DNA from: a virus
Taxonomy: Duplodnaviria > Heunggongvirae > Uroviricota > Caudoviricetes
DNA: 7,698 nt
IMG/VR virus record: IMGVR_UViG_2734482594_000023
Strand: one strand, 5' to 3'
A model generated the notes under the pieces. The model searched no databases and was not told the DNA's origin. It was given only the letters and a program-made list of their open reading frames with translations. Positions 1 to 7,681 of the stretch are shown one piece after another. Every line of letters starts with the position of its first letter. Positions within the stretch are counted from its first letter, which is position 1. The translations under genes and the position numbers were made by a program.

Positions 1-459
1 TTATTCAGTCGGCAGTGCTACGCGCCAGGGGAGCAGTTCGCCGACCCGGTTTATCGGCCAGTCGGCTATGACGTCAAGGACATAGCGGAGGTAGCTTTCT
101 GGCTCCACTCCGTTCAGTTTGCACGTCCCGATCAGGCTGTACAGCAGCGCTCCCCGCTCTCCTCCATGATCCGAACCGAAGAACAGGTAGTTTTTGCGGC
201 CCAGACTGACCATCCGCAACGCATTTTCAGCGATGTTATTGTCCGCCTCAGCCCAGCCATCATCTGCATAGTACGTCAGCGCCGGCCACTGGTTCAGGGC
301 ATATGCGAACGCTTTCGCCAGTTCTGAGTGTCGCGACAGGGTTTTCATCTTTTCACGCAGCCAGCTTTCCAGGGATTTCAGCAGCGGTTTCGTTTTCAAC
401 TGACGTTCGGCAAGGCGCTGTTTCAGCAGGAAGATGTCGTCAGAAGAGATGTCGTTCAT
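1..459 (-). CDS. IS66-family transposase, C-terminal fragment (truncated remnant)
   Basis: The 152-aa ORF carries the conserved C-terminal block of IS66-family transposases (...DNNIAENALRMVSLGRKNYLFFGSDHGGERGALLYSLIGTCKLNGVEPESYLRYVLDVIADWP...ELLPW). The upstream in-frame sequence hits a stop at 520-522, so the N-terminal two-thirds of the transposase and the other IS66 genes are absent on this side. Confidence 0.8.
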   Translation of the reverse strand: MNDISSDDIFLLKQRLAERQLKTKPLLKSLESWLREKMKTLSRHSELAKAFAYALNQWPALTYYADDGWAEADNNIAENALRMVSLGRKNYLFFGSDHGGERGALLYSLIGTCKLNGVEPESYLRYVLDVIADWPINRVGELLPWRVALPTE

Positions 460-522
460 AAGCCCGTATTTTACCGGGCTTATTCTGTGACAACCAGGAT
501 AAAGAGATTTACAGCATGGTCA
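1..522 (-). mobile_element. IS66-family insertion sequence remnant (3' portion only); right boundary approximate
   Basis: Transposase homology runs to the window edge at position 1 and cannot extend past the in-frame stop at 520-522. No IS terminal inverted repeat could be identified by eye. Confidence 0.4.
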
Positions 523-552
523 GGGAGGTCAGCAGCCGCTTAGGCTGTCTAT

Positions 553-677: not shown

Positions 678-1415
678 TCATTCACTCTCTTTCAAACCAG
701 TTTTAACTGTTTGTGGTTTTGGGTAAGGCTGGACTTTGAATAGCTTTGTGTTAAGGCGTTTTCTGGCTCTCTTGTCCAGAAACCGGATGTAACGAAACTG
801 ACGGAATTTATGAACACTGGCTCTGTCGATATTAGCCCGCAGATGTTCACCTCGCTGTCCTCCTCGTTTGATTGCATTCTTGCAAATCTCGTGATACCAC
901 TCGCCATCAAGTTCATAGAATGTTGTTTCATGACTGCCTACATAATCAAAATTGCTTGCCTGGTACACGACACCAAGACAGCCACAACGCTCATCTGCAA
1001 ACGACTGAACCCACTGCACCTGCGGATAAAGTTGTCTGATTAGTTTGAGCGCGTAACTGATTGCCCTTGATTCGGAGTTTCTCGGCATACAGTCATGCAG
1101 CCATAACCGGTTAAGCTCCATATATTCGCGGTTCTGCGTGCCAGTTACGACGCGTGCACCATTGTTTGGATTAAGGGCATAACCCCATTGCATTACGCCA
1201 ACCAGCTCCCGTTCTGAAAATATGCCCAGATGAAGGTAGGAATTATTTACGAAACGATGGCTGTAATGTTTATTGACGACGACCAGCCGGGCCAGCCAGC
1301 AACTTATTGTCTCAACCCGTAACTCACGGGAGCCATAACCGACGATATTGTCGTTATAGTGAATAAGTTCAGGCGTGCTGATGATACGGGATGTAACTTG
1401 CTTTCTGTTCCCCAC
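678..1415 (-). CDS. mom: Mom-family DNA modification protein (adenine carbamoylmethylation, acyltransferase-like); start codon uncertain
   Basis: The ORF lies immediately downstream of, and overlapping, a Com-type zinc-finger gene, as in phage Mu. The proposed GTG start at 1415 gives 245 aa, close to Mu Mom (about 231 aa as I recall), has AAGGAAA 7-9 nt upstream, and sits in the 3' arm of a hairpin. The ORF track extends to a GTG at 1610, which I regard as over-extended; an ATG at 1577 is an alternative. Confidence 0.75.
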
Positions 1416-1569
1416 GACAGGATTTCCTTGTGTATGTGGGGTGCTCTGTGGCGCTCTGAGATGTGATTTGATTGAGGGTTTTACAGCGCGGACATTTAAC
1501 TTCCAGATAACTGAAGCTGGCTCGTGCCAGTAGCTTGTTACAATGTCGGCACCGTATGTTTCGATACAT
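1369..1569 (-). CDS. com: Com-family zinc-finger translational activator of mom
   Basis: The 66-aa product [33 protein letters not shown]... has a CxxC...CxxC zinc-finger layout like Mu Com. AGGAGG lies 10 nt upstream of the ATG at 1569, and the 3' end overlaps the mom start region by about 46 nt. The track's TTG start at 1614 is rejected. Confidence 0.8.
1410..1441 (-). promoter_or_regulatory. mRNA hairpin sequestering the mom GTG start, with the Shine-Dalgarno in the loop (putative Com-responsive translational operator)
   Basis: On the minus strand, CCCCAC (1441-1436) pairs with GTGGGG (1415-1410). The 20-nt loop contains AAGGAAA, and the GTG at 1415-1413 lies in the 3' arm. Confidence 0.45.
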
Positions 1570-1610
1570 GGCCGCATAACCTCCTGCTTTGTTGTTGATA
1601 TCTTTATCAC

Positions 1611-1702
1611 TCAATCGATCGACAAAAACGATCGATTTGATTTATTTAATTGATACAACAAATAACACGAAATGTCATTAGCGAAAATTTATGAGTTTGA
1701 TC
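1611..1702. promoter_or_regulatory. AT-rich divergent control region upstream of com/mom with clustered Dam (GATC) sites and an inverted repeat
   Basis: GATC occurs at 1617-1620, 1630-1633 and 1699-1702. The imperfect inverted repeat TCAATCGATCG-ACAAAAA-CGATCGATTTGA spans 1611-1640. In Mu, mom transcription is controlled by Dam methylation of upstream GATC sites (OxyR binding) and by C-protein activation. Confidence 0.4.
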
Positions 1703-1825
1703 ACTAATTTTAAACGGTGCTGTAACGCATAAGTGCTGAATGATTGTACATTTGAATACCGCAAAGCAAACAAATCAACTAATTTATAGAAGTCAATTGG
1801 TTAATTGCCAGCGTAAGAGGCTGCT

Positions 1826-2119
1826 ATGGACAATCATGTAACGACGAGAAATCGAAAAATGATTGAAAATGCGGAAATCTATAATGATTATTTTTCCGAT
1901 TATTCAGATGCCTGCAAATACAGTTCGAGTGCGGGAGAGTTCATATGCTTCAACTTTTTTATTAAATCTTATGTTTTTCCTCCACAGCAAGAAGATGGAG
2001 GTGTGCCACCTCCTGAAATCACTTTGCACCGTATAGCCTCCGTCTCAATGATGGAGCAACAGGCTAATGAGCTGTATAGCATTCTGGGAACGATTCTACA
2101 AAAGCGTGAATCGGACTAA
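1826..2119 (+). CDS. Hypothetical protein, 97 aa (low-GC orphan gene)
   Basis: ATG at 1826 is preceded by AAGAGG at 5-nt spacing and the frame is open for 97 codons. The gene is AT-rich compared with its neighbours and divergent from com/mom. I recognise no motif. Confidence 0.5.
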   Translation: MDNHVTTRNRKMIENAEIYNDYFSDYSDACKYSSSAGEFICFNFFIKSYVFPPQQEDGGVPPPEITLHRIASVSMMEQQANELYSILGTILQKRESD

Positions 2120-2286
2120 TGATACCGGTTCATTTGCCTGCCCGGATGGGGAAGCAGGATTGACTGCTCCATAAGCAGCTATATTTCTGAATACGAAATA
2201 CTATCCAGCGATTACATATGGCTGGATAGCGGCAAAGATGTTTTCATTAGTGTCAAACCGGCAGAGGACACCACCGGTTTGTATTG

Positions 2287-2541
2287 TTACATCATGGTAC
2301 TGTCAGTTCCGGGCTGAGCCGGGTCTGGTTGCTCTGGCTGCGCGTCGGTTTTCGGCTCATTATCAGCATCACTGGCCGCAACTGCTGGCCCAATAAGTTT
2401 TGCCAGCACTTCATCAACGTAAGTGTCGATTTGTGCCTCAAAATCCTTGCGGACCTGCGCTTTCAGCAACTTATTTACTTCACCGGAATACAGTGCCTGT
2501 TTTACCAGGTCTTCAGTGACGGTGCCTTTAATTTCTGGCAT
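2287..2541 (-). CDS. Hypothetical acidic protein, 84 aa
   Basis: ATG at 2541 has a strong AAGGAGG 7 nt upstream. The product is net acidic (about 16 D/E against 8 K/R) with a Pro/Asp/Glu-rich tail. It lies 35 nt downstream of the small membrane-protein gene, consistent with an operon. Confidence 0.65.
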   Translation of the reverse strand: MPEIKGTVTEDLVKQALYSGEVNKLLKAQVRKDFEAQIDTYVDEVLAKLIGPAVAASDADNEPKTDAQPEQPDPAQPGTDSTMM

Positions 2542-2903: not shown

Positions 2904-4440
2904 TTACGCGTTATTCACTTCCACCACGATACTGTCAATCAGTACCGGGTAAGTCGCATTTTTAGTGATATCGGTCACGCGCAACTTGTCTGCCGTAAAC
3001 GTGCCGACCGGAGACTGCGACAGCATGAATGGTGTCCCGTCCTTACCATCAANNNNNNNNNNNNNNNNNNNNNNNNNNNNNNNNNNNNNNNNNNNNNNNN
3101 NNNNNNNNNNNNNNNNNNNNNNNNNNNNNNNNNNNNNNNNNNNNNNNNNNNNNNNNNNNNNNNNNNNNNNNNNNNNNNNNNNNNNNNNNNNNNNNNNNNN
3201 NNNNNNNNNNNNNNNNNNNNNNNNNNNNNNNNNNNNNNNNNNNNNNNNNNNNNNNNNNNNNNNNNNNNNNNNNNNNNNNNNNNNNNNNNNNNNNNNNNNN
3301 NNNNNNNNNNNNNNNNNNNNNNNNNNNNNNNNNNNNNNNNNNNNNNNNNNNTGAGCCTTGCCACCTCCGGCAGCCCAACCCTGTGGTGTCAACCGTCCTT
3401 CAGACTCAGATGCCCGGTAAGCAAATAGCGTACTCATCGTCGTGGTGTCTGCGGGTGGCGTGGACGGTTTTGATGGTGTATCAGGTGACGGCTTCTCATC
3501 CGGTGGTGTCACGGTCTGCCCACGCATCAGTTCAGCCGTGCGCCCTGCATGGAGCATAATAGCTGAGGCCAGACGGTCTGAAATGACGCCCCTGCGTGCC
3601 CATGAGCTGAAATGGCTGTCACGCTGTGTCGAAACAAAACTGCCCTGGGTTCGGGATGCTGCACCGTAATACCCGACAGCCACAATATCCGGGTCTTCCG
3701 CCGGAGCATTCGTTGGCGTGCNNNNNNNNNNNNNNNNNNNNNNNNNNNNNNNNNNNNNNNNNNNNNNNNNNNNNNNNNNNNNNNNNNNNNNNNNNNNNNN
3801 NNNNNNNNNNNNNNNNNNNNNNNNNNNNNNNNNNNNNNNNNNNNNNNNNNNNNNNNNNNNNNNNNNNNNNNNNNNNNNNNNNNNNNNNNNNNNNNNNNNN
3901 NNNNNNNNNNNNNNNNNNNNNNNNNNNNNNNNNNNNNNNNNNNNNNNNNNNNNNNNNNNNNNNNNNNNNNNNNNNNNNNNNNNNNNNNNNNNNNNNNNNN
4001 NNNNNNNNNNNNNNNNNGCGGTCAAACGAATCCGGTAACGGCAGCCCCTCGCCGTAGGCCATGCCATTTGACTGACCCGCGAGAATGACAACAAAGTAAT
4101 ATTCCGGCTCTGAACTGCTGCCATTCGTGCTACCGGAAGGCCCGGCGTTATCCGGTGCATTCCAGTCGGAGGGCGTGAGCGTTCCGGCCACGTCAGATGT
4201 GATTGGAATGATGCCAGTCACGCCTGAACTGGTGATTTCTGCACTGGGATTACCGGATACCGGCATTACCCATAATGGCTCTTTCGTGCTGAAGCGGATC
4301 ACGCAGTCTGCGAAGGTGATCCCCCCTTTATTACCCGAAGGGCGGAAAGGGCTTTCAATAAATGCCACCGTGCCACCGGCAACCTTGACTGAAAACTCTC
4401 CGGGCATGGCGGAGAGCATTTTCCACTTGGAGTCTGACAT
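2904..4440 (-). CDS. NanS-like sialate O-acetylesterase (SGNH/SASA-type) with an N-terminal extension and a C-terminal Pro/Thr-rich linker plus extra domain; frame ambiguous across masked blocks
   Basis: The N-terminal part (4440->4018) contains YYFVVILAGQSNGMAYGEGLPLPD, the GQSN nucleophile block of SASA/NanS esterases. After the mask, TNAPAEDPD...GYYG...SHFSSWARRGVISDR continues the esterase in a different frame, followed by TPPDEKPSPDTPSKPSTPP and a C-terminal region ending at the TAA at 2904. The span (1537 nt) is not a multiple of 3, so either a frameshift lies in 3722-4017 or the masking is not length-exact. Confidence 0.65.
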
Positions 4441-4516
4441 CGTCTTTTCTGCCTGTTTCTGAATTAAACAGAGTCAGAATAGCGACCGCTGAAAAATATG
4501 TGTTTTGCGGAAATTC

Positions 4517-4544
4517 AAAAAAGCGTCACGGTACTTTTGGTGAC
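4517..4544 (-). terminator. Weak hairpin plus U-run at the invertase stop codon
   Basis: On the minus strand, GTCAC (4544-4540) pairs with GTGAC (4529-4525) across a 10-nt loop, followed by GCTTTTTTG. The stem is short. Confidence 0.25.
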
Positions 4545-5136
4545 GGAGCTGGTGAGGCAGGAAAATAACGATAAAGGNNNNNNNNNNNNNNNNNNNNNNN
4601 NNNNNNNNNNNNNNNNNNNNNNNNNNNNNNNNNNNNNNNNNNNNNNNNNNNNNNNNNNNNNNNNNNNNNNNNNNNNNNNNNNNNNNNNNNNNNNNNNNNN
4701 NNNNNNNNNNNNNNNNNNNNNNNNNNNNNNNNNNNNNNNNNNNNNNNNNNNNNNNNNNNNNNNNNNNNNNNNNNNNNNNNNNNNNNNNNNNNNNNNNNNN
4801 NNNNNNNNNNNNNNNNNNNNNNNNNNNNNNNNNNNNNNNNNNNNNNNNNNNNNNNNNNTTGTCCGTAATGCTGCGGAAGTTAACGCCGCGTTGCCGGAGT
4901 TCTTCTGTTAAAAGGACAAGGTGCTGCATACTGCGTCCAAGGCGATCCAGTTTCCAGACCAGCAGGGTATCCCCTGGCCGGAGTCGCTTTAATGCGCGTT
5001 TAAGTCCGGGACGCTCCCTTGTCTTACCGCTTATTCTGTCTTCGAAAAACAGCTCACATCCTGCACATTCCAGCGCATTTCTTTGTAGCGCCGTATTCTG
5101 GTCATTTGTTGACACCCTGATATACCCAATCAGCAT
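4526..5136 (-). CDS. Site-specific DNA invertase, serine recombinase (Gin/Pin/Cin/Hin family); C-terminal frame differs from the ORF track
   Basis: The N-terminus MLIGYIRVSTNDQNTALQRNALECAGCELFFEDRISGK...LLVWKLDRLGRS is a canonical resolvase/invertase catalytic domain. Left of the mask, the frame reading LYRYFPASPAPSPKVP* (stop at 4528-4526) matches the Hin-type C-terminal helix-turn-helix tail (STLYRYFPAS). The track frame ending at 4474 is rejected. The span is not a multiple of 3 if the masked block is length-exact. Confidence 0.8.
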
Positions 5137-5430
5137 NNNNNNNNNNNNNNNNNNNNNNNNNNNNNNNNNNNNNNNNNNNNNNNNNNNNNNNNNNNNNNNN
5201 NNNNNNNNNNNNNNNNNNNNNNNNNNNNNNNNNNNNNNNNNNNNNNNNNNNNNNNNNNNNNNNNNNNNNNNNNNNNNNNNNNNNNNNNNNNNNNNNNNNN
5301 NNNNNNNNNNNNNNNNNNNNNNNNNNNNNNNNNNNNNNNNNNNNNNNNNNNNNNNNNNNNNNNNNNNNNNNNNNNNNNNNNNNNNNNNNNNNNNNNNNNN
5401 NNNNNNNNNNNNNNNNNNNNNNNNNNNNNN

Positions 5431-7123: not shown

Positions 7124-7681
7124 TCATGGCTNNNNNNNNNNNNNNNNNNNNNNNNNNNNNNNNNNNNNNNNNNNNNNNNNNNNNNNNNNNNNNNNNNNNN
7201 NNNNNNNNNNNNNNNNNNNNNNNNNNNNNNNNNNNNNNNNNNNNNNNNNNNNNNNNNNNNNNNNNNNNNNNNNNNNNNNNNNNNNNNNNNNNNNNNNNNN
7301 NNNNNNNNNNNNNNNNNNNNNNNNNNNNNNNNNNNNNNNNNNNNNNNNNNNNNNNNNNNNNNNNNNNNNNNNNNNNNNNNNNNNCGAGGGCTTCATCCGG
7401 TATTTATTTCCGGCATAACGCTGTCGCTCCGTGAGGGTGGCTCCGGCCATATCACACTCGGGAAGCCCGAGATAACGCTCCCAGTCTTCCAGCAGCAGGC
7501 GCGACGTGTCAGGGAAACGCTCGGCAAGCAGCTGTTTACCCGTCCAGGATACACGCGCTGTCGAATGACTGAGGCCCAGACATAATGATGCCAGTACGGA
7601 TGACGGACGCTTGTCCCATGCCAGCCCGTCAGGCAGTAACTGCAACAGGGCGCGCTGATGCGGGGTCAGGGTTACAGCCAT
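7124..7681 (-). CDS. Phage baseplate/tail protein (P2 gpI / Mu gp48-like, DUF2313-type); C-terminal half masked
   Basis: ATG at 7681 has AGGAGA 7 nt upstream. The N-terminus MAVTLTPHQRALLQLLPDGLAWDKRP...LLEDWERYLGLPE resembles the gpI/gp48 family. The gene sits directly upstream of the tail-fibre gene, as in P2 (I-H-G) and Mu (48-S-U). The TGA at 7126-7124 is in frame only if the masked block is length-exact. Confidence 0.65.
   Translation of the reverse strand: MAVTLTPHQRALLQLLPDGLAWDKRPSSVLASLCLGLSHSTARVSWTGKQLLAERFPDTSRLLLEDWERYLGLPECDMAGATLTERQRYAGNKYRMKPSXXXXXXXXXXXXXXXXXXXXXXXXXXXXXXXXXXXXXXXXXXXXXXXXXXXXXXXXXXXXXXXXXXXXXXXXXXXXXXXXXXXXXP

What the first reader, a model, noticed from the sequence alone, without database searches (positions are those of the whole stretch)
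1826..2119. Low-GC orphan gene transcribed divergently from com/mom
The ORF has a good ribosome-binding site and its composition is markedly more AT-rich than the flanking phage genes, suggesting separate acquisition. It shares the AT-rich control region with com/mom, so it may be co-regulated. I see no recognisable motif.
Basis: seen in the sequence. Interest (0 to 1): 0.4.

Follow-up and report, generated by a model that had tools for sequence, protein, structure and literature searches.

The report
Solo accessory gene beside prophage mom
The ORF is a real small gene carried in a swappable, AT-rich cargo cassette next to com/mom in a Mu-like E. coli prophage. It is a lone copy of a protein that otherwise always heads an uncharacterised three-gene prophage cassette, and its function is still unknown.

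Summary
ORF 1826-2119 (+) encodes 97 aa and has an AAGAGG Shine-Dalgarno 5 nt upstream. It lies head-to-head with com (1369-1569, -) and mom (678-1415, -) near the right end of a Mu-like transposable prophage. GC is 39.8%, against 45-50% in neighbouring genes.

It is a real gene. dN/dS is 0.33 against a variant that is 88.5% identical at the DNA level. A profile built only from distant relatives hits this frame (40 bits, E 2e-12 within the window).

It is not a true orphan. It belongs to a small Enterobacteriaceae prophage family of 97-107 aa proteins (24-33% identity). In every other context examined, this protein is the first gene of a low-GC A-B-C triad. Those triads sit downstream of cI or at a prophage end. 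Here B and C are absent.

The ORF sits in a 574-bp replaceable cassette (1679-2252). Sister prophages carry unrelated genes in that slot. The junction at 1678/1679 separates it from the conserved com/mom control region, so co-regulation with mom is unsupported.

No Pfam, PHROG, NCBIfam, PADLOC, PDB or fold match was found. Two AlphaFold2 models had pLDDT of about 50. My best reading is an independently acquired moron-type cargo gene, and its mechanism is inferred, not shown.

The parts
1826..2119 (+). Protein-coding gene, 97 aa plus stop. The product is acidic (pI 4.7, net charge -6). It is a solo member of the prophage 'A' protein family.
   Evidence: dN/dS 0.33, lowest of six frames; pI; HMM built from triad-linked homologues only: 40.2 bits, E 1.9e-12 among 112 six-frame peptides.
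1815..1820 (+). Shine-Dalgarno AAGAGG, with a 5-nt spacer to the ATG at 1826.
   Evidence: AAGAGG in the window and M3, GAGAGG in CI5.
1679..2252 (.). Replaceable cargo cassette (574 bp, 39.5% GC) that holds the ORF. Sister Mu-like prophages carry unrelated DNA between the same flanks.
   Evidence: homology to L012, L005 and L013 stops at 1678 and resumes at 2253 (L012) or 2258 (L005, L013). for GC. for the alternative cargo.
1679..1825 (+). Cassette-specific 5' region, 34.7% GC. This is the presumed location of the gene's own promoter, which was not located.
   Evidence: Promoter scans found only weak candidates.
2201..2229 (+). 12-bp-arm hairpin inside the cassette, downstream of the stop codon.
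   Evidence: I2, 92% complementary.
2256..2281 (.). G+C-rich hairpin followed by a U-rich stretch, lying between the convergent ORF and DUF826 genes. It is a possible terminator and sits in the conserved flank.
   Evidence: (fold of the region, z = -3.0) and sequence.
1570..1678 (-). com/mom control region conserved among com-bearing Mu-like prophages. It includes the palindrome 1613-1637 (AATCGATCG N7 CGATCGATT) with GATC sites, matching the Dam-site block of Mu's mom promoter region.
1369..1569 (-). com (Com zinc-ribbon translational activator).
678..1415 (-). mom (DNA modification enzyme).
2287..2541 (-). DUF826 gene. It forms the conserved right flank of the cassette and is convergent with the ORF.
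548..550 (.). Right end of the Mu-like prophage. To its left is an interrupted IS66-family transposase gene.
   Evidence: five other copies, inserted at different loci, all align from 547-550 onward. for the flank.

Best explanation
The ORF is a genuine, horizontally acquired accessory ('moron'-type) gene of a Mu-like transposable prophage of E. coli.

Shown:
- It is protein-coding and under moderate purifying selection.
- It sits in a 574-bp low-GC cassette that occupies a variable cargo slot between the late-region gene DUF826 and the com/mom control region.
- Its product belongs to a small family of 97-107 aa proteins ('A') found in Enterobacteriaceae prophages. In every other locus examined, A is the first, translationally coupled gene of an A-B-C triad. 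Those triads lie in prophage accessory positions: downstream of cI, where lambda carries rexAB, or at the prophage end beside retron-type reverse transcriptase, UmuDC and invertase genes.
- Here A stands alone, with no trace of B or C.

Inferred:
- The gene points against all lytic transcription of a Mu-type genome and brings 147 bp of its own AT-rich upstream DNA. It is therefore most likely transcribed from its own promoter, mainly in the lysogen, independently of the C-activated com/mom operon.
- The small acidic, non-membrane protein most likely acts by binding another protein in phage-host or phage-phage conflict, as a modulator or neutraliser rather than an enzyme.

The molecular function of the family is unknown.
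For: Coding:
- The reading frame is kept open, with the Shine-Dalgarno retained, across variants that are 88.5% identical at the DNA level. dN/dS is 0.33, the lowest of the six frames.
- Distant homologues align collinearly with 13 invariant columns. They include P0015 (31% over 80 aa), the phage vB_EcoS-733R5 gene (29%) and P0016-P0026.
- An HMM built without the window clade scores the window frame at 40.2 bits. E is 1.9e-12 within the window and 3e-5 scaled to 1.8e9 proteins.

Cassette and slot:
- Junctions are sharp at 1678/1679 and at 2252/2253 to 2257/2258.
- Other cargo fills the same slot. Strain M18 has a 175-aa zinc-ribbon protein. The Sp18-like/Stx-inserted prophages have other small ORFs.
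- Cassette GC is 39.5%, against 45-47% in the flanks.

Triad context:
- The triad was seen in Yersinia lambdoid prophages downstream of cI, in phage 733R5, and in Klebsiella, Raoultella and Enterobacter prophage ends.
- All triads are low in GC (37-42%) with AT-rich upstream DNA.

Solo state:
- There is no B or C similarity in the window or in three full copies of the locus.
- None of the 18 E. coli genomes carrying the solo gene is among the 11 that carry a triad.

Protein: pI 4.7; no long hydrophobic stretch is evident in the sequence (read by eye; no TM predictor run).
Against: - No promoter could be identified with confidence upstream of the ORF, and no expression data are available. 'Own promoter' and 'lysogen-expressed' are inferences.
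- Only three protein haplotype groups exist in the Mu-like clade. Survival of the open frame alone is weak evidence: 22% of random-substitution simulations keep it open.
- dN/dS of 0.33 is only moderate constraint.
- Some copies are frameshifted or IS-disrupted (P0011-P0014), so the gene is dispensable.
- Both AlphaFold2 models are unreliable (pLDDT 50.7 and 50.6). No fold or family gives a functional handle.
- Every other family member has B-C partners, so a solo A might be inactive.
Confidence: 0.6

Rival explanations
1. Co-regulated partner of com/mom. The ORF would be transcribed from the shared AT-rich control region, for example from a momP2-like divergent promoter. It would then be controlled together with, or reciprocally to, mom by the late activator C, Dam methylation and OxyR, as part of the DNA-modification module.
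For: - The ORF and com lie head-to-head only 256 bp apart.
- Mu has a divergent overlapping promoter, momP2, which RNA polymerase occupies when C is absent (PMC3378877).
- The GATC palindrome conserved with Mu's Dam-site block lies in this intergenic region.
- The only candidate hexamer pair conserved in all three haplotypes (ATAACA-15-GAAAAT, 1662-1688) straddles the junction.
Against: - The conserved com/mom control block ends at 1678. The 147 bp nearest the ORF belong to the swappable cassette.
- Sister prophages keep the same com control region with entirely different divergent genes.
- Relatives of the protein occur in lambdoid and other prophages that show no com/mom in the fetched flanks.
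- A momP2-like start would imply a leader of about 170-230 nt.
Confidence: 0.15
2. Non-functional relic: the leftover first gene of an A-B-C triad whose B and C genes were lost. It would still be intact because the loss is recent, with no activity of its own.
For: - In every other context examined, A is followed by B and C.
- Frameshifted and IS-interrupted alleles exist.
- The gene is rare, present in 18 of 5426 complete E. coli genomes.
- Constraint is only moderate, and the open frame could survive by chance in 22% of simulations.
Against: - Two lineages separated by dS of about 0.27 both keep the full frame, the start codon and the Shine-Dalgarno, with dN/dS 0.33.
- The 133 bp between the stop and the cassette junction show no B-like remnant.
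- The solo arrangement is the same in all 13 loci examined.
- In Yersinia phage vB_YenM_30.14, B-C pair with an unrelated first gene. The A position is therefore a separable module.
Confidence: 0.15
3. Not a gene: a chance open frame in AT-rich regulatory or spacer DNA between com and DUF826.
For: No database family was found. The structure predictions have low confidence. No promoter was identified.
Against: - Protein-level homologues at 24-33% identity exist in unrelated prophages, with no DNA similarity.
- The substitution pattern is frame-specific.
- The Shine-Dalgarno is conserved.
- No Rfam family matches.
Confidence: 0.03

Closest known systems
Morons of temperate phages (extra genes inserted between conserved phage genes, with atypical composition and their own expression signals; concept of Hendrix/Juhala, from my own knowledge)
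   Same: The cassette lies between blocks that are conserved in related prophages, and sister phages carry other cargo in the slot. GC is lower than in the flanks. The gene points against the surrounding phage transcription units. Hairpins follow the gene.
   Different: Its own promoter and its expression in the lysogen are not demonstrated. The slot is never seen empty in this lineage. In phage Mu itself, gin abuts the mom promoter.
Unnamed prophage A-B-C triad: A of 97-107 aa, B of 81-95 aa (103 aa in the vB_YenM_30.14 variant that lacks A), C of 123-128 aa (= phrog_5954, unknown function)
   Same: The window protein is a sequence member of the A family. It is collinear, of the same length, and shares 13 invariant columns. 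It shares the low GC and the prophage-cargo location.
   Different: B and C are absent here. The host element is a Mu-like transposable phage rather than a lambdoid or att-integrated prophage. The triad itself is uncharacterised, with no PADLOC, Pfam or PDB match.
Lambda rexAB / sieB-type immunity-region genes (lysogen-expressed exclusion genes next to cI; from my own knowledge)
   Same: The Yersinia homologue's triad occupies exactly this position: downstream of cI, on the same strand, before the N region.
   Different: There is no sequence similarity to Rex proteins. The window copy is not in an immunity region. No exclusion phenotype has been tested.
Mu momP2 divergent promoter at Pmom
   Same: Divergent transcription away from the mom control region is an established feature of Mu (PMC3378877).
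   Different: In Mu, momP2 drives no known gene. Here the divergent gene sits behind 147 bp of cassette-specific DNA.
Pfam DUF3467 (PF11950)
   Same: UniRef labels the phage 733R5 homologue 'DUF3467 domain-containing'. Length is similar. A C-terminal strand-helix motif is shared, SVTLTxxKAxxLxxALxxNL against SRIVLTPQHAKRLMKALKDNI.
   Different: No family member reaches any hmmscan hit to DUF3467. hhalign probability is only 5-7%. DUF3467 itself has no known function.

Membership tests
Prophage 'A' protein family (first gene of the A-B-C triad; unnamed) | Significant, collinear sequence similarity to the family profile | tested here: met
   An HMM from 11 triad-linked members (window clade excluded) scores 40.2 bits, E 1.9e-12 in the window and 3e-5 scaled to 1.8e9 proteins. 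Profile searches recover each other. There are 13 invariant columns.
Prophage 'A' protein family (first gene of the A-B-C triad; unnamed) | Length of about 97-107 aa with 12-17 residues before the IEN motif | tested here: met
   97 aa, with I13-E14-N15 aligned to the family motif.
A-B-C triad as a system | A is immediately followed by translationally coupled B (81-95 aa) and C (123-128 aa, phrog_5954) genes | tested here: not met
   Sensitive tblastn of B and C proteins from four triads finds nothing in window 1600-2400, and tblastn with the Yersinia B and C proteins finds nothing in L001-L003. Only 133 bp lie between the stop and the cassette end. Genomes with the solo gene lack triad DNA.
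Moron (independently acquired phage accessory gene) | Lies between blocks that are conserved and contiguous in related phages, and is replaceable | tested here: met
   (junctions at 1678/1679 and 2252/2253 to 2257/2258). for the alternative cargo.
Moron (independently acquired phage accessory gene) | Nucleotide composition differs from the flanking phage genes | tested here: met
   Cassette 39.5% GC and ORF 39.8% GC, against flanks of 45.2% and 47.4%.
Moron (independently acquired phage accessory gene) | Own promoter and terminator | tested here: inconclusive
   No convincing sigma-70 promoter. Hairpins at 2201-2229 and 2256-2281 are plausible but untested terminators.
Moron (independently acquired phage accessory gene) | Expressed from the repressed prophage | not testable with these tools
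   No transcriptome data are available. This is inferred only from orientation and from the homologues' positions.
Pfam DUF3467 (PF11950) | hmmscan score above the gathering threshold (25 bits) | tested here: not met
   No DUF3467 hit at E up to 10 for any of 13 family members or for the window protein. Proxy sequences written from memory do hit the model at 116-120 bits, so the test works.
Pfam DUF3467 (PF11950) | Profile-profile similarity to genuine DUF3467 proteins | tested here: inconclusive
   hhalign of A8 against 77 Bacteroidota DUF3467 sequences gives probability 6.8% and P 0.005. Only 24 C-terminal columns align; the alignment is collinear when relaxed.
Known anti-phage defence systems (PADLOC-DB v2) | Match to a component model | tested here: not met
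   No hit at E up to 1 for the window protein or for the Yersinia A, B and C proteins.
Type II / tripartite toxin-antitoxin module (antitoxin or regulator role for A) | Adjacent toxin gene and recognisable antitoxin/toxin folds | tested here: not met
   No adjacent partner gene in the window. No Pfam or PDB similarity of A, B or C to toxin-antitoxin families. Toxicity was not testable.
com/mom regulon (C-, Dam-, OxyR-controlled) | Transcription starts in the conserved mom control region and depends on its regulators | not testable with these tools
   Only architecture could be examined. The conserved control block ends at 1678, 147 bp before the ORF.

The most novel reading that the evidence does not exclude
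The A-B-C triad is a new prophage-borne conflict module: either a tripartite toxin-antitoxin-like system or an anti-phage defence/exclusion system expressed from lysogens. The Mu-like phage would have captured a stand-alone A as a counter-measure. In this reading A is an orphan neutraliser or decoy that disarms B-C modules of resident prophages. It would sit next to mom, the phage's other anti-defence function, in a cargo slot dedicated to such genes.
Probability: 0.12. Interest if true: 0.65.

Novelty: new member of a known kind. Interest (0 to 1): 0.33.

Why it matters
On its own this is an ordinary prophage cargo gene. The follow-up adds three modest points.

1. It corrects the RefSeq start codon: 97 aa, not 86.
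2. It defines a variable cargo slot next to com/mom in E. coli Mu-like prophages. This slot lies beside a second swap, Mom replaced by a C5-cytosine methyltransferase behind the same com.
3. It links the ORF to an uncharacterised three-gene cassette. The cassette is widespread in Klebsiella, Enterobacter, Yersinia and E. coli prophages and sits where lysogen-expressed exclusion or defence genes usually sit.

A naturally occurring solo 'A' gives a simple handle for dissecting that cassette. One can test whether A alone does anything, and whether it neutralises B-C.

Tried and rejected
- **Family libraries.** Pfam, PHROGs, PADLOC and NCBIfam scans of the ORF gave nothing.
- **Structure.** AlphaFold2 was run on the window protein with 7 close sequences and on P0015 with 6 sequences. 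Both gave pLDDT of about 50 and disagreed on topology (all-helical against helix, hairpin, helix). They are unusable. Foldseek on these models found no match with E below 1.
- **PDB.** Sequence and profile searches for A, B and C found nothing.
- **Wider collections.** The GTDB species-representative scan for relatives found none. IMG/VR returned only near-identical copies. Plasmids gave no match.
- **Promoters.** Scans found no convincing promoter.
- **Rfam.** Only a sub-threshold IS102 hit.
- **Literature.** Searches for protein accessions and phrog_5954 gave no papers. DUF3467 appears in one unrelated paper.
- **Co-occurrence.** Solo A and the triad share no E. coli genome, but the expected overlap is about 0.04, so the result is uninformative.
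- **SecB-like chaperone (TAC-type) idea.** I considered this role for A. It rested only on hazy memory and had no sequence support, so I dropped it.
- **RelE/ParE-like toxin idea.** I considered this reading of C from its motifs. It has no Pfam or PDB support and stays speculation.

Full report
**What the window is**

The window holds the right end of a Mu-like transposable prophage of E. coli.
- mom lies at 678-1415 (-) and com at 1369-1569 (-), with Pfam Mom 1.6e-77 and Zn_ribbon_Com 1.3e-12. RefSeq annotation of identical DNA agrees.
- To the right lie DUF826 (2287-2541, -), DUF1378 (2577-2759, -), then tail-fibre, invertase and baseplate genes.
- The prophage ends at about 548-550. Left of that is an interrupted IS66-family transposase gene.
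- Other copies of the same element sit in citF, xdhA, flgL, an EcoR124-type hsdR, dacD and an Stx phage. This spread is the signature of transposition.
- Five runs of N (253-299 nt) mask parts of the window.

**Checking the observation**

- The ORF 1826-2119 (+) exists and encodes 97 aa.
- AAGAGG at 1815-1820 lies 5 nt before the ATG. It is retained as GAGAGG in the most diverged allele.
- The ORF faces com across 256 bp of 34% GC DNA.
- ORF GC is 39.8% (GC3 38.8%). Comparison values are com 48.3%, mom 46.3%, DUF826 50.2%, DUF1378 44.8% and 48.5% overall.
- The description is therefore correct, although the compositional contrast is moderate rather than marked.
- RefSeq starts the gene at 1859, giving 86 aa. 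Met12 is Thr in the CI5 allele. All distant homologues carry 12-17 residues before the conserved IEN motif. The Shine-Dalgarno serves the first ATG.

**Is it a gene?**

- The DNA is found in 18 of 5426 complete E. coli genomes, always between com and DUF826.
- Three protein haplotype groups exist. The CI5 type is 88.5% identical in DNA and 79% in protein.
- Window against CI5 gives dS 0.27, dN 0.09 and dN/dS 0.33. This is the lowest of the six frames.
- An open frame would survive 32 random substitutions in 22% of simulations, so that point alone is weak.
- The decisive evidence is protein-level homology without DNA similarity.
  - A profile search of 1.8e9 representatives found P0015 from Yersinia enterocolitica. 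It is 97 aa, 31% identical over 80 aa and collinear.
  - tblastn with P0015's downstream partner gene led to phage vB_EcoS-733R5. Its first cassette gene is also a homologue at 29-33% identity. Direct tblastn of the window ORF against 50,697 phage genomes independently recovers that gene.
  - A profile including it retrieved P0016-P0026 from Klebsiella, Raoultella, Lelliottia, Enterobacter, Citrobacter and E. coli.
  - An HMM built only from these distant members hits the window frame at 40.2 bits. E is 1.9e-12 among 112 six-frame peptides and 3e-5 even when scaled to 1.8e9 sequences. Nothing else in the window is hit.
- The ORF is therefore coding, and it is not a strict orphan.

**Where the relatives live**

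- In all six Yersinia loci the homologue (A) lies downstream of cI or at an equivalent accessory site. It is followed by a 95-aa gene (B) and a 123-aa gene (C), behind about 480 bp of AT-rich DNA and ahead of a terminator.
- In Klebsiella, Raoultella and Enterobacter genomes and in phage 733R5, the same A-B-C order recurs. It sits at the prophage end beside host genes such as yfdC. Neighbours include retron-type reverse transcriptase, UmuDC, invertase and tail-fibre genes.
- A, B and C abut or overlap each other, which suggests translational coupling.
- The triads have 37-42% GC in loci of 46-50%.
- C is phrog_5954, of unknown function.
- A, B and C have no Pfam, PADLOC or PDB match.
- Yersinia phage vB_YenM_30.14 has B-C behind an unrelated zinc-finger-like first gene. 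The first position is therefore a separable module.

**What is different here**

- The window gene is a solo A. Sensitive tblastn with B and C from four triads finds nothing in 1600-2400, and tblastn with the Yersinia B and C proteins finds nothing in three full copies of the locus.
- Triad DNA is present in 11 E. coli genomes, none of which is among the 18 that carry the solo gene. The expected overlap is about 0.04, so this only shows that A is not accompanied by a recognisable B-C in trans.

**The cassette**

- Sister Mu-like prophages align with the window at 92-95% up to 1678 and again from 2253 or 2258. In between they carry unrelated DNA.
  - Strain M18 has a 175-aa zinc-ribbon protein with a hydrophobic segment.
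  - The Sp18-like and Stx-inserted prophages have small ORFs or a pseudogene.
- The ORF therefore lies in a 574-bp replaceable cassette of 39.5% GC, against 45.2% and 47.4% in the flanks.
- The cassette has 147 bp of its own upstream DNA and 133 bp downstream, which include a 12-bp-arm hairpin at 2201-2229. A second hairpin with a U-rich tail (2256-2281) lies in the conserved flank between the convergent genes.

**Relation to com/mom control**

- The stretch conserved with other com-bearing prophages (1570-1678) contains a perfect palindrome, AATCGATCG-N7-CGATCGATT (1613-1637). Its GATC sites align with the Dam-site block upstream of Mu's mom promoter.
- In Mu, Pmom is controlled by C, Dam and OxyR. 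RNA polymerase occupies a divergent overlapping promoter, momP2, when C is absent (PMC3378877). Divergent transcription from this region therefore has precedent.
- However, the conserved control block stops 147 bp short of the ORF, and the same block serves prophages with other cargo.
- Promoter scans found no convincing sigma-70 promoter anywhere in 1640-1830. The only candidate conserved in all three haplotypes is weak and straddles the junction.
- Co-regulation is therefore unsupported but not excluded. 'Own promoter' is an inference.

**Function**

- The protein is acidic (pI 4.7, charge -6), and no long hydrophobic stretch is evident by eye.
- Two AlphaFold2 runs gave pLDDT 50.7 and 50.6 with different topologies. 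Foldseek on these models found nothing with E below 1.
- UniRef calls the 733R5 homologue 'DUF3467 domain-containing'. I tested this.
  - None of 13 members hits PF11950 by hmmscan.
  - hhalign against 77 genuine Bacteroidota DUF3467 proteins gives probability 6.8% (P 0.005). Only a 24-column C-terminal strand-helix motif aligns, although the alignment is collinear when relaxed.
  - The result is inconclusive, and DUF3467 has no known function anyway.
- My best reading is an autonomously expressed, probably lysogen-expressed, cargo gene. Its small acidic product most likely acts by binding a partner in phage-host or phage-phage conflict.
  - Shown: it is coding, it is a family member, it is solo, and it sits in a swappable low-GC cassette.
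  - Inferred: timing of expression, mode of action, and any role in conflict.

**Rivals**

- Co-regulation with mom: 0.15.
- Inert relic of a triad: 0.15. Frameshifted and IS-disrupted alleles exist, but two lineages separated by dS 0.27 keep the frame, the start and the Shine-Dalgarno.
- Non-coding: 0.03. This is effectively refuted.
- The most novel reading not excluded is that the triad is a new toxin-antitoxin-like or defence module and the solo A is a captured neutraliser placed next to mom. I give this about 0.12.

**Verdict**

This is an ordinary kind of feature, a prophage moron, and it belongs to an uncharacterised family. Interest is modest. It rises somewhat because the solo/triad contrast and the variable slot beside com/mom are directly testable.

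Noticed in passing
L005 3814-4866 (-) and L013 2314-3366 (-), compared with window 678-1415: In the Sp18-like and Stx-phage-inserted Mu-like prophages, the gene behind the same com and control region is a 350-aa DNA cytosine-C5 methyltransferase instead of Mom. Homology to the window stops inside com (window 1402) and resumes only for the terminal 50 bp (600-650). The DNA-modification gene is therefore itself a swappable module under Com control.
   Followed up: partly
window 1613-1637: A perfect 9-bp-arm palindrome, AATCGATCG-N7-CGATCGATT, carries GATC sites and aligns with the Dam-site block of Mu's mom promoter. It lies only 44 nt from the com ATG, against about 75 nt in Mu. Promoter geometry must therefore differ from Mu's, and the palindrome would overlap the -35 region if TAAAGA (about 1601-1606) is the -10 element.
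   Followed up: partly
window 1859 vs 1826: RefSeq/PGAP annotates the gene from the second ATG (86 aa). The CI5 allele lacks that Met, and all distant homologues have a longer N-terminus. The 97-aa form is more likely.
   Followed up: yes
window 1-550: The prophage right end at about 548-550 abuts an interrupted IS66-family transposase gene (C-terminal 152 aa, - strand). Other copies of the prophage sit in citF, xdhA, flgL, hsdR, dacD and an Stx phage, and up to 3 copies occur per genome.
   Followed up: partly
window 4474-5136 (-): A Gin-like serine invertase gene lies between the DUF6645 tail-fibre gene and the tail-fibre assembly gene. The copies otherwise identical around the ORF (L001-L003) have no annotated invertase there and a longer DUF6645 gene. 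The tail-fibre region appears to differ between copies. It is partly hidden by N runs.
   Followed up: no
window 3053-3351, 3722-4017, 4578-4858, 5137-5430, 7132-7384: Five masked runs of N (253-299 nt each) interrupt the tail-fibre, invertase and baseplate genes.
   Followed up: no
P0011, P0014, P0012, P0013 (alleles of window 1826-2119): Some genomes carry disrupted alleles. Two have the same foreign tail (NDSNLLIVFYVQIMPDD...) fused after residue 37 or after residue 67, which suggests the same IS inserted at two sites. Two others are frameshifted or truncated. The gene is therefore dispensable.
   Followed up: no
L012 3919-4446 (+): In strain M18 the same slot holds a 175-aa protein with an N-terminal zinc ribbon, one hydrophobic segment and a C-terminal domain. 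No family match beyond the zinc ribbon was found.
   Followed up: partly
L025 1876-2875: Yersinia phage vB_YenM_30.14 carries B- and C-like genes downstream of cI behind an unrelated 106-aa CxxC-type first gene (phrog_4293). The first position of the triad is therefore exchangeable.
   Followed up: partly
L037-L116: DUF3467 proteins are very conserved across Bacteroidota: 70-81% identical to a consensus-like sequence, with more than 570 hits among species-representative genomes. This suggests a housekeeping role for that uncharacterised family.
   Followed up: no
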